From NCBI GenBank assembly GCA_964016885.1, contig OZ024741.1, positions 7,502,001-7,566,000 on the forward strand: 64,000 nucleotides of DNA. Direction: 5' to 3'. The translations under genes and the position numbers were made by a program. How positions within the stretch are numbered: position 1 is the stretch's first letter; every line of letters begins with the position of its first letter. Of this stretch, positions 34,672-58,735 are shown piece by piece. Under the pieces are notes generated by a model. It had not been told where the DNA came from. It was given only the letters and a program-made list of their open reading frames with translations, and searched no databases. This stretch comes from Eledone cirrhosa (taxonomy: Eukaryota).

Positions 34672-37600
34672 GGTTGTGTATGTGGTCTAGTGGTTGTGTA
34701 GGTGGTCTAGTGGTTGTGTAGGTGGTCTAGTGGTTGTGTAGGTGGTCAAGTGGTTGTGTAGGTGGTCAAGTGGTTGCGTAGGTGGTCTAGTGCTTGTGTA
34801 GGTGGTCTAGTGGTTGTGTAGGTGGTCTAGTGGTTGTGTAGGTGGTCAAGTGGTTGTGTAGGTGGTCTAGTGTTTGTGTAGGTGGTCTAGTGGTTGTGTA
34901 GGTGGTCTAGTGGTTGTGTAGGTGGTCTAGTGGTTGTGTAGGTGGTCTAGTGCTTGTGTAGGTGGTCTAGTGGTTGTGTAGGTGGTCTAGTGGTTGTGTA
35001 GGTGGTCTAGTGCTTGTGTAGGTGGTCTAGTGGTTGTGTAGGTGGTCTAGTGGTTGTGTAGGTGGTCTAGTGGTTGTGTAGGTGGTCTAGTGGTTGTGTA
35101 GGTGGTCTAGTGGTTGTGTAGGTGGTCTAGTGGTTGTGTAGGTGGTCAAGTGGTTGTGTAGGTGGTCTAGTGGTTGTGTAGGTGGTCTAGTGGTTGTTTA
35201 GGTGGTCTAGTGGTTGTGTAGGTGGTCTAGTGGTTGTGTAGGTGGTCTAGTGGTTGTGTAGGTGGTCTAGTGGTTGTGTAGGTGGTCTTGTGGTTGTGTA
35301 GGTGGTCTAGTGCTTGTGTAGGTGGTCTAGTGGTTGTGTAGGTGGTCTAGTGGTTGTGTAGGTGGTCTAGTGGTTGTGTAGGTGGTCTAGTGGTTGTTTA
35401 GGTGGTCTAGTGGTTGTTTAGGTGGTCTAGTGGTTGTGTAGGTGGTTTAGTGCTTGTGTAGGTGGTCTAGTGCTTGTGTAGGTGGTCTAGTGGTTGTGTA
35501 GGTGGTCTAGTGGTTGTGTAGGTGGTCTAGTGGTTGTGTAGGTGGTCTAGTGGTTGTGTAGGTGGTCTAGTGGTTGTTTAGGTGGTCTAGTGGTTGTGTA
35601 GGTGGTCTAGTGGTTGTTTAGGTGGTCTAGTGCTTGTGTAGGTGGTCTAGTGGTTGTGTAGGTGGTCTAGTGGTTGTGTAGGTGGTCTAGTGCTTGTGTA
35701 GGTGGTCTAGTGGTTGTGTAGGTGGTCTAGTGGTTGTGTAGGTGGTCTAGTGGTTGTGTAGGTGGTCTAGTGGTTGTTTAGGTGGTCTAGTGGTTGTGTA
35801 GGTGGTCTAGTGGTTGTGTAGGTGGTCTAGTGGTTGTGTAGGCGGTCTAGTGCTTGTGTAGGTGGTCTAGTGGTTGTGTAGGCGGTCTAGTGGTTGTGTA
35901 GGTGGTCTAGTGCTTGTGTAGGTGGTCTAGTGGTTGTGTAGGTGGTCTAGTGGTTGTGTAGGTGGTCTAGTGGTGTGTAGGTGGTCTAGTGGTTGTGTAG
36001 GTGGTCTAGTGGTTGTTTAGGTGGTCTAGTGCTTGTGTAGGTGGTCTAGTGGTTGTGTAGGTGGTCTAGTGGTTGTGTAGGTGGTCTAGTGGTTGTGTAG
36101 GTGGTCTAGTGGTTGTGTAGGTGGTCTAGTGGTTGTGTAGGTGGTCTAGTGGTTGTGTAGGTGGTCTAGTGGTTGTGTAGGTGGTCTAGTGGTTGTGTAG
36201 GTGGTCTAGTGCTTGTGTAGGTGGTCTAGTGGTTGTGTAGGTGGTCTAGTGGTTGTGTAGGTGGTCTAGTGGTTGTGTAGGTGGTCTAGTGGTTGTGTAG
36301 GTGGTCTAGTGGTTGTTTAGGTGGTCTAGTGGTTGTGTAGGTGGTCTAGTGGTTGTTTAGGTGGTCTAGTGGTTGTGTAGGTGGTCTAGTGGTTGTGTAG
36401 GTGGTCTAGTGTTTGTGTAGGTGGTCTAGTGGTTGTGTAGGTGGTCTAGTGGTTGTGTAGGTGGTCTAGTGCTTGTGTAGGTGGTCTAGTGGTTGTGTAG
36501 GTGGTCTAGTGGTTGTGTAGGTGGTCTAGTGGTTGTGTAGGTGGTCTAGTGGTTGTGTAGGTGGACTAGTGGTTGTGTAGGTGGTCTAGTGGTTGTGTAG
36601 GTGGTCTAGTGGTTGTGTAGGTGGTCTAGTGGTTGTGTAGGTGGTCTAGTGGTTGTGTAGGTGGTCAAGTGGTTGTGTAGGTGGTCTAGTGGTTGTGTAG
36701 GTGGTCTAGTGGTTGTTTAGGTGGTCTAGTGGTTGTGTAGGTGGTCTAGTGGTTGTGTAGGTGGTCTAGTGGTTGTGTAGGTGGTCTAGTGGTTGTGTAG
36801 GTGGTCTTGTGGTTGTGTAGGTGGTCTAGTGCTTGTGTAGGTGGTCTAGTGGTTGTGTAGGTGGTCTAGTGGTTGTGTAGGTGGTCTAGTGGTTGTGTAG
36901 GTGGTCTAGTGGTTGTTTAGGTGGTCTAGTGGTTGTTTAGGTGGTCTAGTGGTTGTGTAGGTGGTTTAGTGCTTGTGTAGGTGGTCTAGTGCTTGTGTAG
37001 GTGGTCTAGTGGTTGTGTAGGTGGTCTAGTGGTTGTGTAGGTGGTCTAGTGGTTGTGTAGGTGGTCTAGTGGTTGTGTAGGTGGTCTAGTGGTTGTTTAG
37101 GTGGTCTAGTGGTTGTGTAGGTGGTCTAGTGGTTGTTTAGGTGGTCTAGTGCTTGTGTAGGTGGTCTAGTGGTTGTGTAGGTGGTCTAGTGGTTGTGTAG
37201 GTGGTCTAGTGCTTGTGTAGGTGGTCTAGTGGTTGTGTAGGTGGTCTAGTGGTTGTGTAGGTGGTCTAGTGGTTGTGTAGGTGGTCTAGTGGTTGTTTAG
37301 GTGGTCTAGTGGTTGTGTAGGTGGTCTAGTGGTTGTGTAGGTGGTCTAGTGGTTGTGTAGGCGGTCTAGTGCTTGTGTAGGTGGTCTAGTGGTTGTGTAG
37401 GCGGTCTAGTGGTTGTGTAGGTGGTCTAGTGCTTGTGTAGGTGGTCTAGTGGTTGTGTAGGTGGTCTAGTGGTTGTGTAGGTGGTCTAGTGGTGTGTAGG
37501 TGGTCTAGTGGTTGTGTAGGTGGTCTAGTGGTTGTTTAGGTGGTCTAGTGCTTGTGTAGGTGGTCTAGTGGTTGTGTAGGTGGTCTAGTGGTTGTGTAGG

Positions 37601-39553
37601 TGGTCTAGTGGTTGTGTAGGTGGTCTAGTGGTTGTGTAGGTGGTCTAGTGGTTGTGTAGGTGGTCTAGTGGTTGTGTAGGTGGTCTAGTGGTTGTGTAGG
37701 TGGTCTAGTGCTTGTGTAGGTGGTCTAGTGGTTGTGTAGGTGGTCTAGTGGTTGTGTAGGTGGTCTAGTGGTTGTGTAGGTGGTCTAGTGGTTGTGTAGG
37801 TGGTCTAGTGGTTGTTTAGGTGGTCTAGTGGTTGTGTAGGTGGTCTAGTGGTTGTTTAGGTGGTCTAGTGGTTGTGTAGGTGGTCTAGTGGTTGTGTAGG
37901 TGGTCTAGTGTTTGTGTAGGTGGTCTAGTGGTTGTGTAGGTGGTCTAGTGGTTGTGTAGGTGGTCTAGTGCTTGTGTAGGTGGTCTAGTGGTTGTGTAGG
38001 TGGTCTAGTGGTTGTGTAGGTGGTCTAGTGGTTGTGTAGGTGGTCTAGTGGTTGTGTAGGTGGTCTAGTGGTTGTGTAGGTGGTCTAGTGGTTGTGTAGG
38101 TGGTCTAGTGGTTGTGTAGGTGGTCTAGTGCTTGTGTATGTGGTCTAGTGGTTGTGTAGGTGGCCTAGTGGTTGTGTAGGTGGTCTAGTGGTTGTGTAGG
38201 TGGTCTAGTGGTTGTGTAGGTGGTCTAGTGGTTGTTTAGGTGGTCTAGTGGTTGTTTAGGTGGTCTAGTGGTTGTGTAGGTGGTTTAGTGCTTGTGTAGG
38301 TGGTCTAGTGCTTGTGTAGGTGGTCTAGTGGTTGTGTAGGTGGTCTAGTGGTTGTGTAGGTGGTCTAGTGGTTGTGTAGGTGGTCTAGTGGTTGTGTAGG
38401 TGGTCTAGTGGTTGTTTAGGTGGTCTAGTGGTTGTGTAGGTGGTCTAGTGGTTGTTTAGGTGGTCTAGTGGTTGTGTAGGTGGTCTAGTGGTTGTGTAGG
38501 TGGTCTAGTGCTTGTGTAGGTGGTCTAGGGGTTGTGTAGGTGGTCTAGTGGTTGTGTAGGTGGTCTAGTGCTTGTGTAGGTGGTCTAGTGGTTGTGTAGG
38601 TGGTCTAGTGGTTGTGTAGGTGGTCTAGTGGTTGTGTAGGTGGTCTAGTGGTTGTTTAGGTGGTCTAGTGGTTGTGTAGGTGGTCTAGTGGTTGTGTAGG
38701 TGGTCTAGTGGTTGTGTAGGCGGTCTAGTGCTTGTGTAGGTGGTCTAGTGGTTGTGTAGGCGGTCTAGTGGTTGTGTAGGTGGTCTAGTGCTTGTGTAGG
38801 TGGTCTAGTGGTTGTGTAGGTGGTCTAGTGGTTGTGTAGGTGGTCTAGTGGTGTGTAGGTGGTCTAGTGGTTGTGTAGGTGGTCTAGTGGTTGTTTAGGT
38901 GGTCTAGTGCTTGTGTAGGTGGTCTAGTGGTTGTGTAGGTGGTCTAGTGGTTGTGTAGGTGGTCTAGTGGTTGTGTAGGTGGTCTAGTGGTTGTGTAGGT
39001 GGTCTAGTGGTTGTGTAGGTGGTCTAGTGGTTGTGTAGGTGGTCTAGTGGTTGTGTAGGTGGTCTAGTGCTTGTGTAGGTGGTCTAGTGGTTGTGTAGGT
39101 GGTCTAGTGGTTGTGTAGGTGGTCTAGTGGTTGTGTAGGTGGTCTAGTGGTTGTGTAGGTGGTCTAGTGGTTGTTTAGGTGGTCTAGTGGTTGTGTAGGT
39201 GGTCTAGTGGTTGTTTAGGTGGTCTAGTGATTGTGTAGGTGGTCTAGTGGTTGTGTAGGTGGTCTAGTGTTTGTGTAGGTGGTCTAGTGGTTGTGTAGGT
39301 GGTCTAGTGGTTGTGTAGGTGGTCTAGTGCTTGTGTAGGTGGTCTAGTGGTTGTGTAGGTGGTCTAGTGGTTGTGTAGGTGGTCTAGTGCTTGTGTAGGT
39401 GGTCTAGTGGTTGTGTAGGTGGTCTAGTGGTTGTGTAGGTGGTCTAGTGGTTGTGTAGGTGGTCTAGTGGTTGTGTAGGTGGTCTAGTGCTTGTGTAGGT
39501 GGTCTAGTGGTTGTGTAGGTGGTCTAGTGGTTGTGTAGGTGGTCTAGTGGTTG
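34672..39553 (+). repeat. 20-bp satellite (about 244 units), GGTGGTCTAGTGGTTGTGTA
   Basis: Continuous 20-bp periodicity with three 19-bp units. Confidence 0.98.
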
Positions 39554-39965
39554 CGGTATTCGGCTCACCAATGAAAGGTCGTCAGATCGATATCCGGCAG
39601 TCGTCAGATCGTTTCAACAGTCGACTCTTCTAAACATGAATTGTACTAGTAATTCAAACGGGCGGCTTTGTATGCTGAATCTCCATGATAACTATGTTAA
39701 GGGTTCACGTGTCTGTGGAATGCTCGGTCATGTTCACGAGCAGGCTGTTTCACATTGCTCCAGTCCACACTGGAAAATGAGTTGTGTATGTAATTTAAAG
39801 GGACAGTCTTGTAACGGCCTTTGTCATGCTGAATCTCCTTGAGAACTATGTTAAGTGTACACATGTCTGTGGAATGCTCAACTGCTAACACGTTAATTTC
39901 ATGAATACGCTGTTCCGTTGTCTGAGCAACTGGAACATTCATCGTCGAACCTGACGGAGGTCCAA
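39538..39965 (+). mobile_element. Two tandem decayed family 1 SINE copies between the satellites
   Basis: Head GGTGGTCTAGTGGTTGCGGTATTCGGCTCAC..AGATCGATATCCGG, then two bodies each with GCTGAATCTCC.TGA.AACTATGTTAAG..GTCTGTGGAATGCTC. Confidence 0.75.
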
Positions 39966-39987
39966 CACACGTAACGTGTTGTAAAGT

Positions 39988-42900
39988 TACGTAGCTTAGT
40001 GGTTAGGGAGTTAGACCCACGATTGTAAGGTCGTGGCTCTGATTCATGTGACGTGTTGTATCCTTGAGCAAGACACTTTATTTCACGTTGGTCCAGTCCA
40101 CTGTGTCCTTGAGAAGGATACTTTATTTCACGTTGGTCCAGTCCACTGTGTCCTTAAGCAAGACACTATATTTCACGTTGCTCCAGTCCACTGTGTCCTT
40201 GAGAAGGATACTTTATTTCACGATGGTCCAGTCCACTGTGTCCTTAAGCAGGACACTATATTTCACGTTGGTCCAGTCCACTGTGTCCTTAAGCAAGACA
40301 CTATATTTCACGTTGGTCCAGTCCACTGTGTCCTTGAGCAAGACACTTTATTTCACGTTGGTCCAGTCCATTGTGTCCTTAATCAGGATACTTTATTTCA
40401 CGTTGCTCCAGTCCACTGTGTCCTTAAGCAAGACACTTTATTTCACGTTGGTCCAGTCCACTGTGTCCTTAAGCAGGATACTTTATTTCACGTTGCTCCA
40501 GTCCACTGTGTCCTTAAGCAAGACACTTTATTTCACGTTGGTCCAGTCCACTGTGTCCTTAAGCAAGACACTTTATTTCACGTTGGTCCAGTCCACTGTG
40601 TCCTTAAGCAAGACACTTTATTTCACGTTGGTCCAGTCCACTGTGTCCTTAAGCAAGATACTTTATTTCACGTTGGTCCAGTCCACTGTGTCCTTAAGCA
40701 AGACACTTTATTTCACGTTGGTCCAGTCCACTGTGTCCTTAAGCAAGACACTTTATTTCACGTTGGTCCAGTCCACTGTGTCCTTAAGCAAGATACTTTA
40801 TTTCACGTTGCTCCAGTCCACTGTGTCCTTAAGCAGGATACTTTATTTCACGTTGGTCCAGTCCACTGTGTCCTTAAGCAGGACTTTATTTCACGTTGGT
40901 CCAGTCCACTGTGTCCTTAAGCAGGATACTTTATTTCACGTTGCTCCAGTCCACCGTGTCCTTAAGCAAGACACTTTATTTCACGTTGGTCCAGTCCACT
41001 GTGTCCTTAAGCAAGACACTTTATTTCACGTTGGACCAGTCCACTGTGTCCTTAAGAAGGATACTTTATTTCACGTTGCTCCAGTCCACTGTGTCCTTAA
41101 GCAAGACACTTTATTTCACGTTGGACCAGTCCACTGTGTCCTTAAGCAGGATACTTTATTTCACGTTGGTCCAGTCCACTGTGTCCTTAAGCAGGATACT
41201 TTATTTCACGTTGGTCCAGTCCACTGTGTCCTTAAGCAGGATACTTTATTTCACGTTGCTCCAGTCCACTGTGTCCTTAAGCAAGACACTTTATTTCACG
41301 TTGGTCCAGTCCACTGTGTCCTTAAGCAAGACACTTCATTTCACGATGGTCCAATCCACTGTGTCCTTAAGCAAGACACTTTATTTCACGTTGGACCAGT
41401 CCACTGTGTCCTTAAGCAGGATACTTTACTTCACGTTGCTCCAGTCCACTGTGTCCTTAAGCAAGACACTTTATTTCACGTTGGTCCAGTCCACTGTGTC
41501 CTTAAGCAAGACTCTTTATTTCACGATGGTCCAGTCCACTGTGTCCTTAAGCAAGACACTTTATTTCACGTTGGACCAGTCCACTGTGTCCTTAAGCAGG
41601 ATACTTTACTTCACGTTGCTCCAGTCCACTGTGTCCTTAAGCAGGATATTTTATTTCACGTTGGACCAGTCCACTGTGTCCTTAAGCAGGATACTTTATT
41701 TCATGTTGGACCAGTCCACTGTGTCCTTAAGCAGCATACTTTACTTCACGTTGCTCCAGTCCACTGTGTCCTTAAGCAGGATACTTTATTTCACGTTGCT
41801 CTAGTCCACTGTGTACTTAAGCAGGACACTTTATTTCACGTTGGACCAGTCCACTGTGTCCTTAAGCAGGATACTTTACTTCACGTTGCTCCAGTCCACT
41901 GTGTACTTAAGCAAGACACTTTATTTCACGATGGTCCAGTCCACTGTGTCCTTAAGCAGGATACTTTATTTCACGTTGGTCCAGTCCACTGTGTCCTTAA
42001 GCAAGACACTTTATTTCACGATGGTACAGTCCACTGTGTCCTTAAGCAAGACACTTTATTTCACGTTGCTCCAGTCCACTGTGTCCTTAAGCAAGACACT
42101 TTATTTCACGTTGGTCCAGTCCACTGTGTCCTTAAGCAAGACTCTTTATTTCACGATGGTCCAGTCCACTGTGTCCTTAAGCAAGACACTTTATTTCACG
42201 TTGGACCAGTCCACTGTGTCCTTAAGCAGGATACTTTACTTCACGTTGCTCCAGTCCACTGTGTCCTTAAGCAGGATACTTTATTTCACGTTGGACCAGT
42301 CCACTGTGTCCTTAAGCAGGATACTTTATTTCACGTTGGACCAGTCCACTGTGTCCTTAAGCAGGATACTTTACTTCACGTTGCTCCAGTCCACTGTGTC
42401 CTTAAGCAGGATACTTTATTTCACGTTGGACCAGTCCACTGTGTCCTTAAGCAGGATACTTTATTTCACGATGGTCCAGTCCACTGTGTCCTTAAGCAAG
42501 ACAATTTATTTCACGTTGGACCAGTCCACTGTGTCCTTAAGCAGGATACTTTATTTCACGTTGCTCCAGTCCACTGTGTCCTTAAGCAAGACACTTTATT
42601 TCACGTTGGACCAGTCCACTGTGTCCTTAAGCAGGATACTTTACTTCACGTTGCTCCAGTCCACTGTGTCCTTAAGCAAACACTTTATTTCACGTTGGTC
42701 CAGTCCACTGTGTCCTTAAGCAGGATACTTTATTTCACGTTGCTCCAGTCCACTGTGTCCTTAAGCAAGACACTTTATTTCACGTTGGACCAGTCCACTG
42801 TGTCCTTAAGCAGGATACTTTATTTCACGTTGGTCCAGTCCACTGTGTCCTTAAGCAGGACTTTATTTCACGTTGGTCCAGTCCACTGTGTCCTTAAGCA

Positions 42901-45900
42901 AGACACTTTATTTCACGTTGGACCAGTCCACTGTGTCCTTAAGCAGGATACTTTATTTCACGTTGGTCCAGTCCACTGTGTCCTTAAGCAGGATACTTTA
43001 TTTCACGTTGGTCCAGTCCACTGTGTCCTTAAGCAGGACTTTATTTCACGTTGGTCCAGTCCACTGTGTCCTTAAGCAGGATACTTTATTTCACGTTGCT
43101 CCAGTCCACTGTGTCCTTAAGCAAGACACTTTATTTCACGTTGGTCCAGTCCACTGTGTCCTTAAGCAAGACACTTTATTTCACGTTGGACCAGTCCACT
43201 GTGTCCTTAAGAAGGATACTTTATTTCACGTTGCTCCAGTCCACTGTGTCCTTAAGCAAGACACTTTATTTCACGTTGGACCAGTCCACTGTGTCCTTAA
43301 GCAGGATACTTTATTTCACGTTGGTCCAGTCCACTGTGTCCTTAAGCAGGATACTTTATTTCACGTTGGTCCAGTCCACTGTGTCCTTAAGCAGGATACT
43401 TTATTTCACGTTGCTCCAGTCCACTGTGTCCTTAAGCAAGACACTTTATTTCACGTTGGTCCAGTCCACTGTGTCCTTAAGCAAGACACTTCATTTCACG
43501 AAGGTCCAATCCACTGTGTCCTTAAGCAAGACACTTTATTTCACGTTGCTCCAGTCCACTGTGTCCTTAAGCAAGACACTTTATTTCACGTTGGTCCAGT
43601 CCACTGTGTCCTTAAGCAAGACTCTATTTCACGATGGTCCAGTCCACTGTGTCCTTAAGCAAGACACTTTATTTCACGTTGGACCAGTCCACTGTGTCCT
43701 TAAGCAGGATACTTTACTTCACGTTGCTCCAGTCCACTGTGTCCTTAAGCAGGATACTTTATTTCACGTTGGTCCAGTCCACTGTGTCCTTAAGCAGGAT
43801 ACTTTATTTCACGTTGGTCCAGTCCACTGTGTCCTTAAGCAGGACTTTATTTCACGTTGGTCCAGTCCACTGTGTCCTTAAGCAGGATACTTTATTTCAC
43901 GTTGCTCCAGTCCACTGTGTCCTTAAGCAAGACACTTTATTTCATGTTGGTCCAGTCCACTGTGTCCTTAAGCAAGACACTTTATTTCACGTTGGACCAG
44001 TCCACTGTGTCCTTAAGAAGGATACTTTATTTCACGTTGCTCCAGTCCACTGTGTCCTTAAGCAAGACACTTTATTTCACGTTGGACCAGTCCACTGTGT
44101 CCTTAAGCAGGATACTTTATTTCACGTTGGTCCAGTCCACTGTGTCCTTAAGCAGGATACTTTATTTCACGTTGGTCCAGTCCACTGTGTCCTTAAGCAG
44201 GATACTTTATTTCACGTTGCTCCAGTCCACTGTGTCCTTAAGCAAGACACTTTATTTCACGTTGGTCCAGTCCACTGTGTCCTTAAGCAAGACACTTCAT
44301 TTCACGAAGGTCCAATCCACTGTGTCCTTAAGCAAGACACTTTATTTCACGTTGCTCCAGTCCACTGTGTCCTTAAGCAAGACACTTTATTTCACGTTGG
44401 TCCAGTCCACTGTGTCCTTAAGCAAGACTCTATTTCACGATGGTCCAGTCCACTGTGTCCTTAAGCAAGACACTTTATTTCACGTTGGACCAGTCCACTG
44501 TGTCCTTAAGCAGGATACTTTACTTCACGTTGCTCCAGTCCACTGTGTCCTTAAGCAGGATACTTTATTTCACGTTGGACCAGTCCACTGTGTCCTTAAG
44601 CAGGATACTTTATTTCATGTTGGACCAGTCCACTGTGTCCTTAAGCAGGATACTTTACTTCACGTTGCTCCAGTCCACTGTGTCCTTAAGCAGGATACTT
44701 TATTTCACGTTGCTCCAGTCCACTGTGTACTTAAGCAAGACACTTTATTTCACGTTCGACCAGTCCACTGTGTCCTTAAGCAGGATACTTAACTTCACGT
44801 TGCTCCAGTCCACTGTGTACTTAAACAAGACACTTTATTTCACGATGGTCCAGTCCACTGTGTCCTTAAGCAGGATACTTTATTTCACGTTGGTCCAGTC
44901 CACTGTGTCCTTAAGCAAGACACTTTATTTCACGATGGTCCAGTCCACTGTGTCCTTAAGCAAGACACTTTATTTCACGTTGCTCCAGTCCACTGTGTCC
45001 TTAAGCAAGACACTTTATTTCACGTTGGTCCAGTCCACTGTGTCCTTAAGCAAGACACTTTATTTCACGATGGTCCAGTCCACTGTGTCCTTAAGCAAGA
45101 CACTTTATTTCACGTTGGACCAGTCCACTGTGTCCTTAAGCAGGATACTTTACTTCACGTTGCTCCAGTCCACTGTGTCCTTAAGCAGGATACTTTATTT
45201 CACGTTGGACCAGTCCACTGTGTCCTTAAGCAGGATACTTTATTTCACGTTGGACCAGTCCACTGTGTCCTTAAGCAGGATACTTTACTTCACGTTGCTC
45301 CAGTCCACTGTGTCCTTAAGCAGGATACTTTATTTCACGTTGGACCAGTCCACTGTGTCCTTAAGCAGGATACTTTATTTCACGATGGTCCAGTCCACTC
45401 TGTCCTTAAGCAAGACACTTTATTTCACGTTGGACCAGTCCACTGTGTCCTTAAGCAGGATACTTTATTTCACGTTGCTCCAGTCCACTGTGTCCTTAAG
45501 CAAGACACTCTATTTCACGTTGGACCAGTCCACTGTGTCCTTAAGCAGGATACTTTACTTCACGTTGCTCCAGTCCACTGTGTCCTTAAGCAAACACTTT
45601 ATTTCACGTTGGTCCAGTCCACTGTGTCCTTAAGCAGGATACTTTATTTCACGTTGCTCCAGTCCACTGTGTCCTTAAGCAAGACACTTTATTTCACGTT
45701 GGACCAGTCCACTGTGTCCTTAAGCAGGATACTTTATTTCACGTTGCTCCAGTCCACTGTGTCCTTAAGCAAGACACTTTATTTCACGTTGCTCCAGTCC
45801 ACTGTGTCCTTAAGCAAGACACTTTATTTCACGTTGGACCAGTCCACTGTGTCCTTACGCGGGGTACTTTATTTCACGTTGGACCAGACCACTGTGTCCT

Positions 45901-48900
45901 TAAGCAAGACACTTTATTTCACGTTGGTCCAGTCCACTGTGTCCTTAAGCAAGACACTTTATTTCACGTTGCTCCAGTCCACTGTGTCCTTAAGCAAGAC
46001 ACTTTATTTCACGTTGGACCAGTCCACTGTGTCCTTAAGCAGGATACTTTATTTCACGTTGCTCCAGTCCACTGTGTCCTTAAGCAAGACACTTTATTTC
46101 ACGTTGGTCCAGTCCACTGTGTCCTTAAGCAAGACACTTTATTTCACGTTGGTCCAGTCCACTGTGTCCTTAAGCAAGATACTTTATTTCACGTTGCTCC
46201 ACTCCACTGTGTCCTTAAGCAAGATACTTTATTTCACGTTGGTCCAGTCCACTGTGTCCTTAAGCAAGACACTTTATTTCACGTTGCTCCAGTCGACTGT
46301 GTCCTTAAGCAAGACATTTTATTTCACGTTGGTCCAGTCCACTGTGTCCTTAAGCAAGATACTTTATTTCACGTTGCTCCAGTTCACTGTGTCCTTAAGC
46401 AAGACACTTTATTTCACGTTGCTCCAGTCCACTGTGTCCTTAAGCAAGACACTTTATTTCACGTTGGTCCAGTCCAATGTGCCCTTGAGCAAGACACGTT
46501 GGTCCAGTTGGTCCAGTTGGTCCACGTTGGACACGTTGGTCCAGTCCACTGTGTCCTTAAGCAAGACACTTTATTTCACGTTGGACCAGTCCACTGTGTC
46601 CTTACGCAGGATACTTTATTTCACGTTGGACCAGACCACTGTGTCCTTAAGCAAGACACTTTATTTCACGTTGGTCCAGTCCACTGTGTCCTTAAGCAAG
46701 ACACTTTATTTCACGTTGCTCCAGTCCACTGTGTCCCTAAGCAAGACACTTTATTTCACGTTGGACCAGTCCACTGTGTCCTTAAGCAGGATACTTTATT
46801 TCACGTTGCTCCAGTCCACTGTGTCCTTAAGCAAGACACTTTATTTCACGTTGGTCCAGTCCACTGTGTCCTTAAGCAAGATACTTTAATTCACGTTGCT
46901 CCACTCCACTGTGTCCTTAAGCAAGATACTTTATTTCACGTTGGTCCAGTCCACTGTGTCCTTAAGCAAGACACTTTATTTCACGTTGGTCCAGTCCACT
47001 GTGTCCTTGAGCAAGACACTTTATTTCACGTTGCTCCAGTCCACTGTGTCCTTAAGCAAGACACTTTATTTCACGTTGTTCCAGTCCACTGTGTCCTTAA
47101 GCAAGACACTTTATTTCACGTTGGTCCAGTCCAATGTGCCCTTGAGCAAGACACTTTATTTCACGTTGGTCCAGTCCACTGTGTCCTTGAGCAAGATACT
47201 TTATTTCACGTTGCTCCAGTCCACTGTGTCCTTAAGCAGATACTTTATTTCACGTTGCACCAGTTCACTGTGTCCTTAAGCAAGACACTTTATTTCACGT
47301 TGCTCCAGTCCACTGTGTCCTTAAGCAAGACACTTTATTTCACGTTGGTCCAGTCCACTGTGTCCTTGAGCAAGACACTTTATTTCACGTTGCTCCAGTC
47401 CACTGTGTCCTTAAGCAAGACACTTTATTTCACGTTGGACCAGTCCACTATGTCCTTAAGCAGGATACTTTATTTCACGTTGGTCCAGTCCACTGTGTCC
47501 TTAAGCAGGATACTTTATTTCACGTTGCTCCAGTCCACTGTGTCCTTAAGCAGGATACTTTATTTCACGTTGCTCCAGTCCACTGTGTCCTTAAGCTGGA
47601 CACTTTATTTCACGTTGGTCCAGTCCACTGTGTCCTTAAGCAAGACACTATATTTCATGTTGGTCCAGTCCACTGTGTCCTTGAGCAGGATACTTTATTT
47701 CACGTTGCTCCAGTCCACTGTGTCCTTAAGCAAGACACTTTATTTCACGTTGGACCAGTCCACTGTGTCCTTAAGCAGGATACTTTACTTCACGTTGCTC
47801 CAGTCCACTGTGTACTTAAGCAAGACACTTTATTTCACGATGGTCCAGTCCACTGTGTCCTTAAGCAGGATACTTTATTTCACGTTGGTCCAGTCCACTG
47901 TGTCCTTAAGCAAGACACTTTATTTCACGATGGTCCAGTCCACTGTGTCCTTAAGCAAGACACTTTATTTCACGTTGGTCCAGTCCACTGTGTCCTTAAG
48001 CAAGACACTTTATTTCACGTTGGACCAGTCCACTGTGTCCTTAAGCAGCATACTTTACTTCACGTTGCTCCAGTCCACTGTGTCCTTAAGCAGGATACTT
48101 TATTTCACGTTGGACCAGTCCACTGTGTCCTTAAGCAGGATACTTTATGTCACGTTGGACCAGTCCACTGTGTCCTTAAGCAGGATACTTTACTTCACGT
48201 TGCTCCAGTCCACTGTGTCCTTAAGCAGGATACTTTATTTCACGTTGGTCCAGTCCACTGTGTACTTAAGCAAGACTCTTTATTTCACGATGGTCCAGTC
48301 CACTGTGTTCTTAAGCAAGACACTTTATTTCACGTTGGACCAGTCCACTGTGTACTTAAGCAAGACACTTTATTTAACGATGGTCCAGTCCACTGTGTCC
48401 TTAAGCAGGATACTTTATTTCACGTTGGTCCAGTCCACTGTGTCCTTAAGCAAGACACTTTATTTCACGATGGTCCAGTCCACTGTGTCATTAAGCAAGA
48501 CACTTTATTTCACGTTGGTCCAGTCCACTGTGTCCTTAAGCAAGATACTTTATTTCACGTTGGACGAGTCCACTGTGTCCTTACGCAGGATACTTTATTT
48601 CACGTTGCTCCAGTCCACTGTGTCCTTAAGCAAGACACATTATTTCACGTTCGACCAGTCCACTGTGTCCTTCAGCAGGATACTTTATTTCACGTTGCTC
48701 CAGTCCACTGTGTCCTTAAGCAGGATACTTTATTTCACGTTGGTCCAGTCCACTGTGTCCTTAAGCAAGACACTTTATTTCACGTTGGTCCAGTCCAATG
48801 TGCCCTTGAGCAAGACACGTTGGTCCAGCTGGTCCAGTTGGTCCACGTTGGACACGTTGGTCCAGTCCACTGTGTCCTTAAGCAAGACACTTTATTTCAC

Positions 48901-51900
48901 GTTGGACCAGTCCACTGTGTCCTTACGCAGGATACTTTATTTCACGTTGGACCAGACCACTGTGTCCTTAAGCAAGACACTTTATTTCACGTTGGTCCAG
49001 TCCACTGTGTCCTTAAGCAAGACACTTTATTTCACGTTGCTCCAGTCCACTGTGTCCTTAAGCAAGACACTTTATTTCACGTTGGACCAGTCCACTGTGT
49101 CCTTAAGCAGGATACTTTATTTCACGTTGCTCCAGTCCACTGTGTCCTTAAGCAAGACACTTTATTTCACGTTGGTCCAGTCCACTGTGTCCTTAAGCAA
49201 GACACTTTATTTCACGTTGGTCCAGTCCACTGTGTCCTGAAGCAAGATACTTTATTTCACGTTGCTCCACTCCACTGTGTCCTTAAGCAAGATACTTTAT
49301 TTCACGTTGGTCCAGTCCACTGTGTCCTTAAGCAAGACACTTTATTTCACGTTGGTCCAGTCCACTGTGTCCTTAAGCAAGATACTTTATTTCACGTTGG
49401 TCCAGTCCACTGTGTCCTTGAGCAAGACACTTTATTTCACGTTGGTCCAGTCCACTGTGTCCTTAAGGAAGATACTTTATTTCACGTTGGTCCAGTCCAC
49501 TGTGTCCTTGAGCAAGATACTTTATTTCACGTTGGTCCAGTCCACTGTGTCCTTGAACAAGACACTTTATTTCACGTTGCTCCAGTCCACTGTGTCCTTA
49601 AGCAAGACACTTTATTTCACGTTGGTCCAGTCCACTGTGTCCTTGAGCAAGATAATTTATTTCACGTTGCTCCATTCCACTGTGTCCTTAAGCAAGACAC
49701 TTTATTTCACGTTGGTCCAGTCCACTGTGTCCTTAAGCAAGACACTTTATTTCACGTTGGTCCAGTCCACTGTGTCCTTAAGCAAGACACTTTATTTCAC
49801 GTTGGTCCAGTCCACTGTGTCCTTGAGCAAGACACTTTATTTCACGTTGCTCCAGTCCACTGTGTCCTTAATCAGGATACTTTATTTCACGTTGCTCCAG
49901 TCCACTGTGTCCTTAAGTAAGACACTTTATTACACGTTGCTCCAGTCCACTGTGTCCTTAATCAGGATACTTTATTACACGTTGCTCCAGTCCACTGTGT
50001 CCTTAAGTAAGACACTTTATTACACGTTGCTCCAGTCCACTGTGTCCTTAAGTAAGACACTTTATTACACGTTGCTCCAGTCCACTGTGTCCTTAAGCAA
50101 GACACTTTATTTCACGTTGGTCCAGTCCACTGTGTCCTTGAGCAAGAGACTTTATTTCATGTTGCTCCAGTCCACTGTGTCCTTAAGCAGGATGCTTTCT
50201 TTCACGTTGGTCCAGTCCACTGTGTCCTTGAGCAAGACACTTTATTTCACGTTGGTCCAGTCCACTGTGTCCTTGAGGAAGACACTTTATGTCACGTTGG
50301 ACCAGTCCACTGTGTCCTTAAGCAAGACACTTTATTTCACGTTGGTCCAGTCCATTGTGTCCTTAAGCAAGATACTTTTTTCACGTTGGTCCAGTCCACT
50401 GTGTCCTTGAGCAGGATACTTTATTTCACGTTGCTCCAGTCCACTGTGTCCTTAAGCAAGATACTTTATTTCACGTTGCTCCAGTCCACTGTGTCCTTAA
50501 GCAGGATACTTTATTTCACGTTGCTCCAGTCCACTGTGTCCTTAAGCAAGACACTTTATTTCACGTTGCTCCAGTCCACTGTGTGCTTGAGCAAGACACT
50601 TTATTTCACGTTGCTCCAGTCCACTGTGTCCTTAAGCAGGATACTTTATTTCACGTTGCTCCAGTCCACTGTGTCCTTAAGCAGGATACTTTATTTCACG
50701 TTGCTCCAGTCTACTGTGTCCTTAAGCAGGATACTTTATTTCACGTTGCTCCAGTCCACTGTGTCCTTAAGCAGGATACTTTATTTCACGTTGGTCCAGT
50801 CCACTGTGTCCTTAAGCAGGATACTTTATTTCACGTTGGTCCAGTTTACTGTGTCCTTAAGCAGGATACTTTATTTCACGTTGGTCCAGTCCACTGTGTC
50901 CTTAAGCAGGATACTTTATTTCACGTTGGTCCAGTCCACTGTGTCCTTAAGCAAGACACTTTATTTCACATTGCTCCAGTCCACTGTGTCCTTGAGCAAG
51001 ACACTTTATTTCACGTTGCTCCAGTCCACTGTGTCCTTAAGCAGGATACTTTATTTCACGTTGCTCCAGTCCACTGTGTCATTAAGCAGGATACTTTATT
51101 TCACGTTGCTCCAGTCTACTGTGTCCTTAAGCAGGATACTTTATTTCACGTTGCTCCAGTCCACTGTGTCCTTAAGCAGGATATTTTATTTCACGTTGGT
51201 CCAGTCCACTGTGTCCTTAAGCAGGATACTTTATTTCACGTTGGTCCAGTCCACTGTGTCCTTAAGCAAGATACTTTATTTCACGTTGGTCCAGTCCACT
51301 GTGTCCTTAAGCAGGATACTTTATTTCACGTTGGTCCAGTCCACTGTGTCCTTAAGCAGGATACTTTATTTCACGTTGCTCCAGTCCACTGTGTCCTTAA
51401 GCAAGACACTTTATTTCACATTGCTCCAGTCCACTGTGTCCTTGAGCAAGACACTTTATTTCACGTTGCTCCAGTCCACTGTGTCCTTAAGCAGGATACT
51501 TTATTTCACGTTGCTCCAGTCCACTGTGTCCTTAAGCAGGATACTTTATTTCACGTTGCTCCAGTCTACTGTGTCCTTAAGCAGGATACTTTATTTCACG
51601 TTGCTCCAGTCCACTGTGTCCTTAAGCAGGATATTTTATTTCACGTTGATCCAGTCCACTGTGTCCTTAAGCAAGATACTTTATTTCACGTTGGTCCAGT
51701 CCACTGTGTCCTTAAGCAGGATACTTTATTTCACGTTGGTCCAGTCCACTGTGTCCTTAAGCAAGATACTTTATTTCACGTTGGTCCAGTCCACTGTGTC
51801 CTTAAGCAGGATACTTTATTTCACGTTGGTCCAGTCCACTGTGTCCTTAAGCAAGACACTTTATTTCACGTTGGTCCAGTCTACTCACATGACAAAAATA

Positions 51901-52050
51901 AGTCCTACCTGTAATTCAAAGAGCCACAATCTGTTTTACGCTGAATCTCCCTGAGGACTACGGTAATGGTACATGTGTCTGTGGAATGGTCAGCCACTTT
52001 TAGGTTAATTTCCCAAGCAAGCTGTTCCATTGATCAAATCAACAGAAGTA
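39988..52050 (+). mobile_element. Family 1 SINE split by internal amplification: head 39988-40056, body 51886-52050
   Basis: GTAGCTTAGTGGTTAGGG...CACGATTGTAAGGTCGTG precedes the array; CTGTAATTCAAAG..GCTGAATCTCCCTGAG..GTGTCTGTGGAATG..GCTGTTCCATTGATC follows it. Confidence 0.8.
40057..51885 (+). repeat. 45-bp satellite (about 263 units), TGTGTCCTTAAGCAAGACACTTTATTTCACGTTGGTCCAGTCCAC
   Basis: Continuous 45-bp periodicity with rare 43/44-bp units. Confidence 0.98.
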
Positions 52051-52385
52051 CTCGTGTCTGTGGCTCCAATACTAACCACTAAAACCGACAGAAGTACACG
52101 TGTCTGTGGCTCCAATACTAACCCCTAGAACCGGCAGAAGTACACGTGTCTGTGGCTCCAATACTAACCCCTAGAACTGACAGAAGTACTCGTGTCTGTG
52201 TCTCCAATACTAACCCCTAGAACCGACAGAAGTACTCGTGTCTGTGGCTCCAATACTAACCCCTAGAACCGACAGAAGTACACGCGTCTGTGTCTCCAAT
52301 ACTAACCCCTAGAACCGACAGAAGTACTCGTGTCTGTGGCTCCAATACTACCCCCTAGAACCGACAGAAGTACACGTGTCTGTGG
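52043..52385 (+). repeat. 46-bp minisatellite (about 7.5 units), CAGAAGTACACGTGTCTGTGGCTCCAATACTAACCCCTAGAACCGA
   Basis: Units start at 52043, 52089 and onward. Confidence 0.93.
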
Positions 52386-52750
52386 CCCCTTTTTAACTTC
52401 TCCTTAACCACACTATGTACTATTATAAAACTGTATTAGTACCTCACCCTCTCCCCATCTCTCCCCCTCCCACTCTTTCTCTTCCTCTCACTGTCAATAT
52501 CACCCTCTCCTTAAAACAACACCCCCACCGTCTCTTATCCCACTCACTTTCTACCTCTTCCTCCTCCTCCTCCTCACCAAGTTTTGTCCTTCTATATCCA
52601 ACTTATATATATCCCCCTCTCTCATTCCCTCTTTCTCTCTCTCACACTCTCCCCCTTTCTGTCTTTCCACCTCCTCTCTCATTAAACTCTGTCTCCCCTT
52701 TTCTCTATAACTCTTAGTCTATGTTCTCCCTTACTTGCTTTTTAACCCGC

Positions 52751-52782
<32 letters not shown>

Positions 52783-53102
52783 ACTCTCCCTCTCTCTCTA
52801 ACCATACTCTCCCTCTCTCTCTCCTCCTCTCTCTCTAACCATACTCTCCCTCTCTCTCTCTCCTCCTCTCTCTCTAACCATACTCTTTCTCTCTCCTCTC
52901 CGATACCAGTCATATCTTTCTATGCTCTCTTCTCTCCCTCCTCTCACTCTCCCACTCTCGCTCTAATTTCTACTCTCGTCCCTGCAATATCCTTTTCTCT
53001 CTCTCTCTCTCACTCCTCCCGCTCTCTCTTCCCTTTCTCTCTCCCTCCTCCCTCTCTCTCTCCTCATCCTCTTACTCTTTCTGTTCCCCTTCTCCTATAT
53101 TT

Positions 53103-53828
53103 CCACTCCCTCCCACTACACCAATAGCCAGTATATAACTTCCTCTGCTATTCCCTCAACCCCACTCCCTCCCACTACACCAATAGCCAGTATATAACTT
53201 CCTCTGCTATTCCCTCAACCCCACTCCCTCCCACTACACCAATAGCCAGTATATATCTTCCTCTGCTGTTCCCTCAACCCCACTCCCTCCCACTACACCA
53301 ATAGCCAGTATATATCTTCCTCTGCTGTTCCCTCAACCCCACTCCCTCCCACTACACCAATAGCCAGTATATAACTTCCTCTGCTATTCCCTCAACCCCA
53401 CTCCCTCCCACTACACCAATAGCCAGTATATATCTTCCTCTGCTGTTCCCTCAACCCCACTCCCTCCCACTACACCAATAGCCAGTATATATCTTCCTCT
53501 CCTATTCCCTCAACCCCACTCCCTCCCACTACACCAATAGCCAGTATATATCTTCCTCTGCTGTTCCCTCAACCCCACTCCCTCCCACTACACCAATAGC
53601 CAGTATATAACTTCCTCTGCTATTCCCTCAACTCCACTCCCTCCCACTACACCAATAGCCAGTATATATCTTCCTCTGCTGTTCCCTCAACCCCACTCCC
53701 TCCCACTACACCAATAGCCAGTATATAACTTCCTCTGCAGTTCCCTCAACCCCACTCCCTCCCACTACACCAATAGCCAGTATATATCTTCCTCTGCTGT
53801 TCCCTCAACCCCACTCCCTCCCACTACA
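53103..53828. repeat. 59-bp minisatellite (about 12 units), CCACTCCCTCCCACTACACCAATAGCCAGTATATAACTTCCTCTGCTATTCCCTCAACC
   Basis: Units start at 53103, 53162 and onward. Confidence 0.95.
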
Positions 53829-53929
53829 TTATGTCACACAACTGCACTGACTCGCCTGTCCCTCACAATAGATTGATCACGTGTCCAAACTGTCTGGACA
53901 ACTGTTCCACTTGATTGATATTGAAAATA

Positions 53930-54271
53930 TGGTGGTGGTGGTGGTGATGGTGGTGGTGAGGGTAGGGGATGGGTGGTGGTGGTGGTGGTGATGGAAGAGT
54001 TGTTGTTGTTGTTTGTGGTGGTGGTGGTGGTGGTGGTGTGGGTTGTTGTTGTGGTGGTGGTAGTGTTGGTGGTGGTGGTGGTTGCAGTGCTGGTGGTGGT
54101 GGTGTGGTGGTGGTGGTGGTGGTGTGGGTTGTGCTGGTGGTGGTGTGGGTTGTTGTTGTGGTGGTGGTGGTGGTGGTGGAGGTAGTGTTGTTGTTGGTGG
54201 TGGTGGTTGCAGTAGTAGGGGTGGCGGTGTGGGTTGTTGTTGTGGTGGTGTTGTTGTTGTTGGTGTTGTTG

Positions 54272-54303
<32 letters not shown>

Positions 54304-54425
54304 GGTGGTGGTGGTGTGGATTGTTGTTGTTGTGGTGGTGGTGGTGGTGGTGGTAGTGTTGTTGTTGGTGGTGGTGGTGGTTGCAGTGATGGTGGTGGTG
54401 GTGTGGGTTGTTGTGGTAGAGTTGT
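53930..54425. repeat. (GGT)n/(GTT)n trinucleotide field
   Basis: Direct reading. Confidence 0.95.
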
Positions 54426-54589
54426 GATGACTCATTAACAAGGAATTGCACAAGGCCAGCAATTTGAAGCGAAGGGGAAAGCCGATTACATCGCCAGTGT
54501 ATTACTGGTACTTCATTCTATCGACCCTGTAACGACGAAATATAAAGTTGACCTCAGCGCCATTTCAAGTCATTTCGGTTAAATAATAA

Positions 54590-54737
54590 TAATTGTTTCT
54601 ACTTTAGGCACAAGACCAGCAAATTACCCAGTGCATTACTGGTACTTTATTTTATCGACCCCGTAAGGATGAAAGGCAAAGTCAACCTCGGCGGGATTTG
54701 AACTCAGATCGTAAAGGGACGTAACTACGCTGGAAAG
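54590..54737 (-). mobile_element. Family 2 SINE B-box and body, contiguous with the 45-bp minisatellite
   Basis: CTGGTACTTTATTTTATCGACCCCGTAAGGATGAAAGGCAAAGTCAACCTCGGCGGGATTTGAACTCAG; another decayed copy at about 54445-54570. Confidence 0.85.
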
Positions 54738-57170
54738 CATGGCGTCCGACCCTCTACCGATACTGCCAATCCACCACCCTAACATGGCGTCCGACCCTCT
54801 ACCGATACTGCCAATACACCACCCTAACATGGCGTCCGACCCTCTACCGATACTGCCAATCCACCGCCCTAACATGGCGTCCCACCCTCTACCGATACTG
54901 CCAATCCACCACCCTAACATGGCGTCCGACCCTCTACCTACACTGCCATTCCACCGTACTAACATGGCGTCCCACCCTCTACCGATACTGCCAATCCACC
55001 ACCCTAACATGGCGTCCCACCCTCTACCTACACTGCCATTCCACCGTACTAACATGGCGTCCGACCCCCTACCTACACTGCCATTCCACCGTACTAACAT
55101 GGCGTCCCACCCTCTACCAATACTGCCAATCCACCGCCCTAACATGGCGTCCCACCCTCTACCGATACTGCCAATCCACCACCCTAATATGGCGTCCCAC
55201 CCTCTACCGATACTGCCAATCCACCACCCTAACATGGCGTCCCACCCTCTACCGATACTGCCATTCCACCGTACTAACATGGCGTCCGACCCTCTACCGA
55301 TACTGCCAATCCACCACCCTAACATGGCGTCCCACCCTCTACCGATACTGCCAATCCACCACCCTAACATGGCGTCCCACCCTCTACCGATACTGCCAAT
55401 CCACCACCCTAACATGGCGTCCCACCCTCTACCGATACTGCCATTCCACCGTACTAACATGGCGTCCGACCCTCTACCGATACTGTCAATCCACCGCCCT
55501 AACATGGCGTCCGACCCTCTACCGATACTGCCAATCCACCGCCTTAACATGGTGTCCGACCCTCTACCCTACCGATACTGCCAATCCACCGCCCTAACAT
55601 GGCGTCCGACCCTCTACCGATACTGCCAATCCACCGCCTTAACATGGTGTCCGACCCTCTACCCTACCGATACTGCCAATCCACCGCCCTAACATGGCGT
55701 CCGACCCTCTACCTACACTGCCATTCCACCGTACTAACATGGCGTCCCACCCTCTACCGATACTGCCAATCCACCACCCTAACATGGCGTCCCACCCTCT
55801 ACCGATACTGCCAATCCACCGCCCTAACATGGCGTCCCACCCTCTACCGATACTGCCAATCCACCGCCCTAACATGGCGTCCTTCCCCCTACCTACACTG
55901 CCATTCCACCGTACTAACATGGCGTCCGACCCTCTACCGATACTGCCAATCCACCACCCTAGCTTGGCGTCCGACCGTCTACCGATACTGCCAATCCACC
56001 ACCCTAACATGGCGTCCGACCCTCTACCGATACTGCCAATCCACCGCCCTAACATGGCGTCCGACCGTCTACCGATACTGCCAATCCACCACCCTAACAT
56101 GGCGTCCAACCCTCTACCGATACTGCCAATCCACCACCCTAACATGGCATCCGACCCTCTACCGATATTGTCAATCCACCACCCTAACATGGCGTCCAAC
56201 CCTCTACCGATACTGTCAATCCACCACCCTAACATGGCGTCCAACCCTCTACCGATACTGCCAATCCACCGCCCTAACACGGTGTCCGACCCTCTACCGA
56301 TACTGCCAATCCACCACCCTAACATGACGTCCGACCCTCTACCGATACTGCCAATCCACCGCCCTAACACGGTGTCCGACCCTCTACCGATACTGCCAAT
56401 CCACCGCCCTAACATGGCGTCCGACCCTCTACCGATACTGCTAATCCACCACCCTAACATGGCGTCCGACCCTCTACCGATACTGCCAATCCACCACCCT
56501 AACATGGTGTCCCACCCTCTACCGATATTGTCAATCCACCGCCCTAGCATGGCGTCCGACCCTCTACCGATACTGCCAATCCACCGCCCTAACATGGCGT
56601 CCGACCCTCTACCGATACTGCCAATCCACCGCCCTAACACGGTGTCCGACCCTCTACCGATATTGTCAATCCACCACCTTAACATGGCGTTCCACCCTTT
56701 ACCGATACTGCCAATCCACCGCCCTAACACGGTGTCCGACCCTCTACCGATATTGTCAATCCACCACCTTAACATGGCGTTCCACCCTTTACCGATACTG
56801 CCAATCCACCGCCCTAACACGGTGTCCGACCCTCTACCGATACTGCCAATCCACCACCCTAACATGGCGTCCGACCCTCTACCGATACTGCCAATCCACC
56901 ACCCTAACATGGCGTCCGACCCTCTACCGATACTGCCAATCCACCACCCTAACATGGCGTCCGACCCTCTACCGATACTGCCAATCCACCGCCCTAACAT
57001 GGCGTCAGACCCTCTACCGATACTACCAATCCACCGCCCTAACACGGCGTCAGACCCTCTACCGATACTACCAATCCACCGCCCTAACACGGCGTCAGAC
57101 CCTCTACCGATACTGCCAATCCACCGCCCTAACACGGCGTCAGACCCTCTACCGATACTACCAATCCACC
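54738..57170 (-). repeat. 45-bp minisatellite (about 54 units), CATGGCGTCCGACCCTCTACCGATACTGCCAATCCACCACCCTAA
   Basis: 45-bp periodicity with two 50-bp units near 55560 and 55660. Confidence 0.97.
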
Positions 57171-57362
57171 AATAATAATATTTGTCAAAACTGTTTTAGA
57201 ACTGTGCGACTTGCTAAAATAATGTTATCTTAATTAAGACGCATGGTGACATATGCACACACATACACACACACACAGATACATGTATACATGCACACAC
57301 ACACATACATGTATACACACACACACATACACACATGTATACAGACACACACACACACACAC

Positions 57363-57899: not shown

Positions 57900-58084
57900 A
57901 ATAATTGTTTCTACTTTTGGCACAAGGCCACCAATTATCCAGTGTATTACTGGTACTTTATTTTATCAACCCTGTAAGGATGAAAGGCAAAGTTAACCTC
58001 AGAAAGCATGTCCGACCCTCTACCGATACTGCCAATTCACCGCCCTAACATGGCGTCTGACCCTCTACCGATACTGCCAATTCA
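57900..58084 (-). mobile_element. Family 2 SINE with deleted B-box region and a duplicated head unit
   Basis: Body as at 54590, then AAAGCATGTCCGACCCTCTACCGATACTGCCAATTCACCGCCCTAA-CATGGCGTCTGACCCTCTACCGATACTGCCAATTCA. Confidence 0.8.
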
Positions 58085-58384
58085 TGTAAATAATGTTCTC
58101 AGAAAACAAAATCAAGATATGTTTCCTTCGATCTTTCCCGATTGGTTTTCCCTGCCACTCCTAGCAGAACTGTCATCACATTTCTTGTGACAAAAGACAA
58201 AAATTGATCTCAGAATCAACAGATTTGGAAGAGACAACGTAAATATTGTCACCCAACAACTTACAACAATTAAGTAAAGTTGACAAAGACGACATTTGTA
58301 CTCAGAGACCGCAGAAAACCAGAATTGCAGTAAATTAATTTATCCGACCTTCTCACGATTCGGTTAATTCACCGACATCATCTA

Positions 58385-58582
58385 TATTTCACGTTGTTAC
58401 AGTAGATTGAACCTGTAATGTAAAGGGACAGCCTCGTCACACTGTGCTATGCTGAATCTCCCTGAGAAGTATGTTAAAGGTGCTCGTGTTTGGGGAAAGC
58501 TCGATCAGTTACACGTTATTTTTATGAACCGACAGTTCGATCAACTGAAGCGACTCATCGTCGTAACTGACGAATGTCCAAC
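58385..58582 (+). mobile_element. Decayed family 1 SINE body
   Basis: TTTCACGTTG..AAAGGGACAGCCTCGTCAC..GCTGAATCTCCCTGAGAA..CGTCGTAACTGACG. Confidence 0.7.
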
Positions 58583-58735
58583 ACATTGGTCGTGTAGAGG
58601 TAGAGGGCTTGGTACATGTCTAACTTCTGGTCTTCCATACATCCTTGAACAGCTTCAAGCCTGAACCCTCTAACATCGCTCACACTCATCTACATAGACT
58701 GAAGCAAGTTTTCTCAAGGGATAGGGAGCCCAAAG

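What the first reader, a model, noticed from the sequence alone, without database searches (positions are those of the whole stretch)
34672..57170. Three large tandem arrays each amplified in place from a different SINE module
Seen: the 20-bp array runs into the rest of a SINE head; the 11.8-kb 45-bp array lies between the head and body of one SINE; the 2.4-kb 45-bp array replaces the head of a second SINE family; a 46-bp array starts where the split SINE body ends. Parent SINE parts remain colinear at the junctions. TE-derived satellites are known in general, but three or four independent births from defined SINE modules within about 23 kb is unusual. Inference: a local hotspot (for example subtelomeric) that converts 20-46-bp SINE segments into satellites.
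Basis: partly seen in the sequence, partly recalled or inferred. Interest (0 to 1): 0.72.

Follow-up and report, generated by a model that had tools for sequence, protein, structure and literature searches.

The report
Satellites spreading between SINE copies
Four tandem arrays here are built from pieces of short jumping elements (SINEs); the 20- and 46-base arrays occur only at this place, but the two 45-base arrays have the same unit and join inside many other SINE copies near chromosome ends, and were likely copied into resident SINEs from nearby arrays rather than born separately.

Summary
The arrays are real, and collapsing them rebuilds colinear SINEs. The reading 'independent births in a 23-kb hotspot' is half right. 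The 20-bp and 46-bp units occur only here (147 of 147 and 5 of 5 genome matches). The two 45-bp arrays belong to genome-wide families with a fixed join. For SINE-A, 33 of 36 matches share the register. For SINE-B, 426 of 71,115 heads are repeated, and 74 of 90 listed loci share one join. These loci cluster at chromosome ends (47 of 72 in the outer tenths), where random samples were 62% tandem array, nearly all unrelated to these SINEs. New here: neighbouring, separately inserted SINE-B copies share rare join variants (5 of 12 pairs, 0.14 expected). First units are often 5'-truncated while inner joins are complete, and SINE-A units look younger than their hosts (22 of 22). The likely mechanism is interlocus gene conversion that seeds arrays into resident SINEs, followed by growth in place. 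Closest known: reptile SINE-derived satellites (kind) and Drosophila Rsp-like spread (mechanism). The scan noted SINE-head satellites before on other DNA.

The parts
34672..39553 (+). 20-bp array (244 units) from the 5' end and A-box region of a SINE-A copy; unique in the genome
   Evidence: 147 of 147 exact matches lie in the window
39554..39752 (+). rest of the head and decayed body of that SINE-A copy, colinear with the last 20-bp unit
   Evidence: alignment
39748..39959 (+). second, 5'-truncated SINE-A copy (80% to consensus)
   Evidence: blastn
39979..40056 (+). head of the split SINE-A copy (49 of 66 aligned positions match consensus)
40057..51885 (+). 45-bp array (263 units) of the SINE-A central module (consensus positions 80-124); same join at many other loci; internal block duplications of 806-3068 bp
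51886..52055 (+). body of the split SINE-A copy (149 of 174 match consensus)
52042..52386 (+). 46-bp array (7.5 units), partly SINE-A body sequence; unique in the genome
   Evidence: 5 of 5 matches in the window
53103..53828 (+). 59-bp array (12 units) with no match to the three SINE references used; an in-window example of a non-SINE array
54588..54737 (-). body and tail of a very young SINE-B copy (146 of 147 to consensus)
54738..57170 (-). 45-bp array (54 units) = first 45 nt of SINE-B; the outermost unit lacks the first 5 nt that the inner joins carry; a 9-bp AT-rich direct repeat flanks the whole element (weak, low complexity)
57900..58085 (-). separate SINE-B copy with two heads and the same join, 9-bp flanking direct repeat, internal deletion
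   Evidence: flank 58065-58720 matched exactly by contigs of run X3

Best explanation
These are SINE-derived satellites in a chromosome-end zone where short tandem duplications grow into long arrays; the 20- and 46-bp arrays occur only here and likely began here, while the two 45-bp arrays likely received their join from an existing array elsewhere by homology-directed copying into a resident SINE. Shown: SINE origin and colinear flanks, uniqueness of the 20- and 46-bp units, fixed joins of the 45-bp units in many unrelated SINE copies, enrichment at chromosome ends, and sharing of rare join variants between neighbouring copies. Inferred: a break in the SINE module is repaired on a nearby cognate array (interlocus gene conversion, or reintegration of an excised circle), the strand re-anneals out of register and leaves two or more units between the host's own ends, and unequal exchange then expands and homogenises the array. 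No function is implied.
For: (1) Fixed register: 33 of 36 SINE-A matches in a search open to periods 30-60 (about 24 of 26-27 after removing copies with shared flanks); 74 of 90 loci among the first 100 of 426 SINE-B matches (counted by hand). (2) The join cannot be copied from the host's own 5' end in many loci: 39 of 63 fully seen SINE-B arrays, the window's included, start at unit position 1-10 while inner joins are complete; flanking direct repeats of 8 bp or more in 35 of 63. (3) Hosts are not one lineage: SINE-B bodies fall in three motif-defined groups (25, 19, 10; 12 unassigned); 23 SINE-A hosts need 15 changes on a tree with 29 ordinary copies against 17.2 shuffled, with no host-specific site (poorly resolved tree). 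(4) SINE-A units are closer to consensus than their host bodies in 22 of 22 loci (95.6% against 85.6%; ordinary copies 92% against 90%). (5) Neighbours within 1 Mb share rare join variants in 5 of 12 adjacent pairs, 0.14 expected, p 5e-5. In the three clusters whose flanks I printed, flanks and bodies differ; of 7 first units, 4 lack the shared variant, 1 carries one of two shared changes and 2 are too short to tell; one pair 2 Mb apart shares a non-standard join. (6) Fixed-join loci are distal (47 of 72 in the outer tenths, p 9e-17), 16 one-off joins are not (KS p 0.44), and single heads are scarce distally (6.5 per Mb in the first 15.5 Mb of C1 against 23.7 per Mb overall).
Against: Some two-unit loci share private changes in both units (L292 three changes, L128 one, L122 one, window 57900-58085 one). 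One conversion step does not give that; it needs later homogenisation and contraction, and it fits delivery of a ready-made RNA dimer better. No donor was found for a variant unit of the window's SINE-B array (7 of 7 matches are in the window). Sharing among neighbours could reflect exchange between arrays that already existed rather than seeding. The 5 pairs form only 4 clusters, and the flanks of one pair (L281/L282) were not printed. The common C/T join variant is not clustered (6 of 12, p 0.44). Searches were anchored on near-exact units and on the SINE body, which inflates unit identity and misses arrays without a SINE flank; 1,683 of 1,833 SINE-A join matches lie outside the window and most were not examined.
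Confidence: 0.55

Rival explanations
1. The seed arrives by retrotransposition: multi-head (or multi-module) source copies are transcribed and inserted as dimers, or the reverse transcriptase jumps template at the 5' end; distal copies then expand in place.
For: Flanking direct repeats enclose the whole multi-head element in 35 of 63 loci, and first units are truncated like ordinary insertions. Two-unit loci can share private changes in both units. The SINE-B unit begins exactly at the element's 5' end.
Against: Two-unit loci are only 13 of 66, and the 9 on the four large contigs all lie within 90 Mb of an end, whereas single heads are depleted distally. Neighbours with bodies of different groups share rare joins (L298/L299). 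The SINE-A unit is internal, its hosts form no clade and look older than their units.
Confidence: 0.22
2. Each array is an independent in-place duplication, and the fixed registers come from a sequence feature (hairpin, microhomology) plus a general bias to units of 40-50 bp.
For: True for the 20- and 46-bp arrays and for other SINE-A head arrays of 34, 35, 39 and 60 bp. Many distal arrays have units of 40-51 bp. Locus-specific changes run through all units of many arrays.
Against: Only 1 nt of microhomology at the SINE-A join (read from the consensus). Inner joins hold bases that the host's 5' end lacks. In 31 of 74 joins a T stands where the host's own last unit has C. Neighbour sharing of rare variants.
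Confidence: 0.13
3. One reading: a local 23-kb hotspot that specifically converts SINE segments into satellites.
For: Four SINE-derived arrays in 23 kb, against one more in the surrounding 400 kb and one borderline case among 130 arrays in 590 kb of samples elsewhere.
Against: Both 45-bp families are genome-wide. 53% of the 464-kb region and 62% of distal samples are arrays, mostly unrelated to these SINEs. The window was picked for this feature out of a 3-Gb genome.
Confidence: 0.1

Closest known systems
SINE-derived satellites (sSat1-3) of squamate reptiles, Vassetzky, Kosushkin and Ryskov 2023, PMC10702118 (read parts 1-4 of 5 of the text; supplements not seen)
   Same: Tandem units are part of a SINE; terminal units run on into the parent SINE; few to hundreds of units; one dominant unit at many loci; subtelomeric bias, stronger for long arrays (here rho -0.45 between distance from the end and unit number).
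   Different: Units here are 20-60 bp against about 70-290 nt. Both SINE ends are usually kept here, a minor form there. In the parts read, that paper invokes duplication by unequal recombination and concerted evolution and does not test how one join reaches many loci. The host here appears to be an octopus (recalled SINE likeness and earlier scan notes, not tested).
[quoted passage not shown] 2020, PMC7403614 (read 12 passages)
   Same: One rare join is shared by many loci and is proposed to seed new arrays at places that already hold homologous repeat, by interlocus gene conversion or circle reintegration.
   Different: There the landing sites are clusters of an unrelated satellite joined by microhomology. 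Here they are dispersed SINE copies and the array is made of the SINE's own module.
Minisatellites from Alu (Jurka and Gentles 2006) and from mouse B1 (Bois et al. 1998); seen only as entries and references in the review PMC9659126 (passages)
   Same: Short tandem units grown from SINE segments; the review counts 2,663 Alu-associated human minisatellites.
   Different: Originals not read. From memory, the Alu case concerns about the first 44 bases and is ascribed to short flanking repeats at each locus, not to transfer of a join between loci.

Membership tests
SINE-derived satellite (sSat) | tandem unit matches part of a SINE | tested here: met
   only partly for the 46-bp unit, and by colinear junction for the 20-bp unit
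SINE-derived satellite (sSat) | terminal unit extends into the parent SINE | tested here: met
   head found in 12 of 17 other SINE-A loci whose left end was seen, partial in 1
SINE-derived satellite (sSat) | at least four middle units, same unit at many loci | tested here: met
   45-bp arrays. The 20- and 46-bp units are single-locus
SINE-derived satellite (sSat) | subtelomeric bias | tested here: met
   47 of 72 SINE-B loci in the outer tenths of C1-C5; telomeres themselves not located
tRNA-derived SINE (parents A and B) | dispersed, high copy, 190-330 nt, simple tail, flanking direct repeats | tested here: met
   71,115 exact SINE-B head matches; 2,531 candidates for the SINE-A body; direct repeats (SINE-B only)
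tRNA-derived SINE (parents A and B) | tRNA-like head with A and B boxes | tested here: inconclusive
   box-like motifs read by eye against recalled consensus; ARAGORN and Rfam find no tRNA in the region
CORE-SINE, octopus OR1/OR2/OK families | sequence match to the published consensus | not testable with these tools
   likeness of the SINE-A module to CORE is recalled; PMC4758252 (passages) names OR2 as an octopus CORE SINE, but no sequence was readable
Rsp-like type spread by interlocus conversion | same join shared by many loci, nearby loci most alike | tested here: met
Rsp-like type spread by interlocus conversion | landing repeat present without the array at the orthologous site of relatives | tested here: inconclusive
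   laying contigs and reads was swamped by SINE copies and did not cover the array's flank
Rsp-like type spread by interlocus conversion | satellite present on extrachromosomal circles | not testable with these tools
   no suitable data

The most novel reading that the evidence does not exclude
Dispersed SINE copies act as landing pads for their own satellites: one rare tandem join, once formed, hops from array to nearby single SINE by homology-directed repair and so colonises hundreds of loci along chromosome ends, in two unrelated SINE families with the same 45-bp period. This would explain why SINE-derived satellites show one unit at many loci while keeping each host's own ends.
Probability: 0.45. 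Interest if true: 0.68.

Novelty: new variant of a known kind. Interest (0 to 1): 0.47.

Why it matters
SINE-derived satellites are known, and spread of a satellite by a shared join is known from Drosophila. What is open in the reptile work is how one unit comes to stand in many separate SINE copies. This genome offers hundreds of short arrays with flanking direct repeats, host-specific ends and rare join variants, so seeding, growth and homogenisation can be read locus by locus and tested with one related assembly. It also shows large chromosome-end domains made mostly of many different single-locus satellites. No effect on genes or phenotype is shown.

Tried and rejected
An inverted SINE-head piece inside the 46-bp unit: not significant (17% of 2,000 shuffles as good). 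SINE origin of the 40-bp and 59-bp arrays: no match above shuffles to the three references used; other repeat families were not tested. A donor for the window's variant SINE-B unit: none. tRNA or other structured RNA in the arrays: none; Rfam hits are microsatellite matches below the gathering score. Orthologous state in other runs: inconclusive; small-share runs X1 and X2 gave no usable evidence, and no run covered 57190-57255. Rolling-circle copying of a 45-nt RNA: rejected because first units start at positions 0-10, not at random. A role of the telomere-like hexamer formed by the T variant of the join (motif recalled): no test possible, 38 of 74 joins have C there. One search used a wrong gap length and gave 0; corrected. 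Unit against body divergence in SINE-B is confounded by subfamily differences and was not used as support. Literature searches listed no paper on octopus SINE satellites or on join transfer between SINE copies; the library lacks most subscription papers, and the SINEBase supplements could not be read.

Full report
Observation. TRF confirms all four arrays at the stated coordinates. The window is G000:C2:7,502,001-7,566,000, 7.5 Mb from the end of a 416.3-Mb contig in a 3.0-Gb assembly. I built consensus sequences in scripts from 29 dispersed copies of one SINE (A, about 328 nt) and 24 of another (B, 192 nt). With the 11.8-kb array collapsed, head, unit and body align to SINE-A in order. With the 2.4-kb array collapsed, a full SINE-B appears on the minus strand. 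The last 20-bp unit matches the first about 24 nt of SINE-A with a 4-nt gap and continues into head and body. The 46-bp unit holds a 16-nt exact piece of the SINE-A body. That the host is an octopus and that the SINE-A module is CORE-like are recalled likenesses, also stated in earlier scan notes, and were not tested.

Which arrays are private. The 20-bp pattern has 147 genome matches, all 147 in the window; the 46-bp pattern has 5, all in the window. Other SINE-A head arrays have other periods (34, 35, 39 bp; 60 bp). These look like separate births in place.

Which are not. The SINE-A 45-bp join occurs 1,833 times, 150 in the window. 28 other loci on 15 contigs run from such an array into a SINE-A body; 10 of them are copies sharing flanks. 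In a search open to periods 30-60, 33 of 36 matches have this register. For SINE-B, 426 of 71,115 exact heads are preceded by another head. The 100 listed matches are 90 loci, and 74 have the unit seen here, the first 45 nt of the element.

Where they lie. 47 of 72 fixed-join SINE-B loci on C1-C5 are in the outer tenth of either end (p 9e-17). 16 one-off joins do not differ from uniform. Single heads are scarcer distally. Twenty 10-kb samples within 20 Mb of the ends of C1 and C2 were 62% tandem array, against 16% in 20 interior samples and 13% in 19 samples at 5-7 Mb of other contigs. Only 1 of these 130 arrays passed my SINE test, and marginally; the test is weak for short units and used three references only. 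In 464 kb around and including the window, 25 arrays cover 53%; 4 pass the test, plus the 20-bp array by colinearity. The hotspot is therefore a chromosome-end domain that amplifies many sequences, with some unexplained local excess.

How the join spreads. In 66 SINE-B loci walked unit by unit, 63 were fully seen. 39 start at position 1-10 of the unit while inner joins are complete, 35 have a flanking direct repeat of 8 bp or more around the whole element, and bodies belong to three motif groups. The window's array is one of these: its outer unit lacks 5 nt that the inner joins have, so the join did not come from the host's own 5' end. For SINE-A, units average 95.6% identity to consensus and host bodies 85.6%, higher in 22 of 22 loci (38 loci examined, 10 paralogues and 6 without enough body dropped); ordinary copies give 92% and 90%. 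Hosts are not clustered on a weakly resolved tree. Among 74 fixed-join loci, 5 of 12 adjacent pairs within 1 Mb share a rare join variant, 0.14 expected in 20,000 permutations. In three clusters inspected, flanks and bodies differ and the first unit mostly keeps the host state, and a further pair 2 Mb apart shares a non-standard join. I infer copying from a nearby array into a resident SINE, then unequal exchange; block duplications of 0.8-3 kb inside the window's arrays fit the latter.

Against this. Some two-unit loci share private changes in both units, which suits RNA delivery of a dimer or needs later contraction. No donor exists for the window's variant unit. Neighbour sharing may partly be exchange between existing arrays. 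Searches favoured near-exact units with a SINE body. Reads did not settle the orthologous state or the array lengths.

Comparison. The arrays meet the tested features of SINE-derived satellites described in reptiles (PMC10702118, parts 1-4 of 5 read), with shorter units and both SINE ends kept. The inferred spread works like Rsp-like seeding into 1.688 clusters (PMC7403614, passages read), but the decisive ortholog test was inconclusive here. Alu and B1 minisatellites were seen only through a review (PMC9659126, passages). Nine literature searches listed nothing on join transfer between SINE copies; coverage is limited and supplements were not seen. Three earlier scan notes describe SINE-head satellites on other DNA and file them under the same kind.

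Verdict. A real feature and a new variant of a known kind. The cluster itself is modest. The evidence that satellites colonise SINE copies through a shared join is the part worth following. Interest 0.47.

Noticed in passing
window 1-16119 (G000:C2:7,433,481-7,518,119): End of an 84.6-kb array of a 40-bp unit with no match to the three SINE references.
   Followed up: partly
L341:1 to L329:5855 (G000:C2:7,302,001-7,387,855): Array of at least 85.8 kb of a 60-bp SINE-A head unit that ends in a decayed SINE-A body, 150 kb upstream of the 20-bp array.
   Followed up: partly
L337-L340 (G000:C2:7,729,630-7,764,834): 35-kb array of a 49-bp unit, no SINE match.
   Followed up: no
L233-L252 (distal C1 and C2): Most random distal 10-kb samples fall in long arrays, each with its own unit; many units are 40-51 bp.
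   Followed up: partly
window 20492-20891, 21555-21687, 27654-27965, 30467-30591, 30975-31428: Five fold-back palindromes, several centred on or bounded by (AT)n runs; real template switches or assembly artefacts.
   Followed up: no
window 20273-20494 and 24053-24274; N run at 20911-21110: A 222-bp stretch duplicated at 96% on both sides of an assembly gap.
   Followed up: no
window 28500-29959 (+): Broken retroelement-like remnant in three frames; weak reverse transcriptase hit in the first (RVT_1, E 0.001, below the curated cut-off); looks Penelope-like by recalled motifs.
   Followed up: partly
L093, L096-L102, L112 (C16, C19, C20, C27): Nine near-identical copies of one SINE-A array with the same body and 3' flank, so the array travels inside a larger duplicated or mobile unit.
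   Followed up: no
L003, L013, L038, L044, L048, L049: Full-length SINE-B copies in head-to-tail runs of 2-4, suggesting insertion into the tails of earlier copies.
   Followed up: no
window 46433-46549 and 48754-48870: Two 117-bp variant blocks in the 45-bp array contain a nested 9-bp repeat, a smaller repeat arising inside the array.
   Followed up: no
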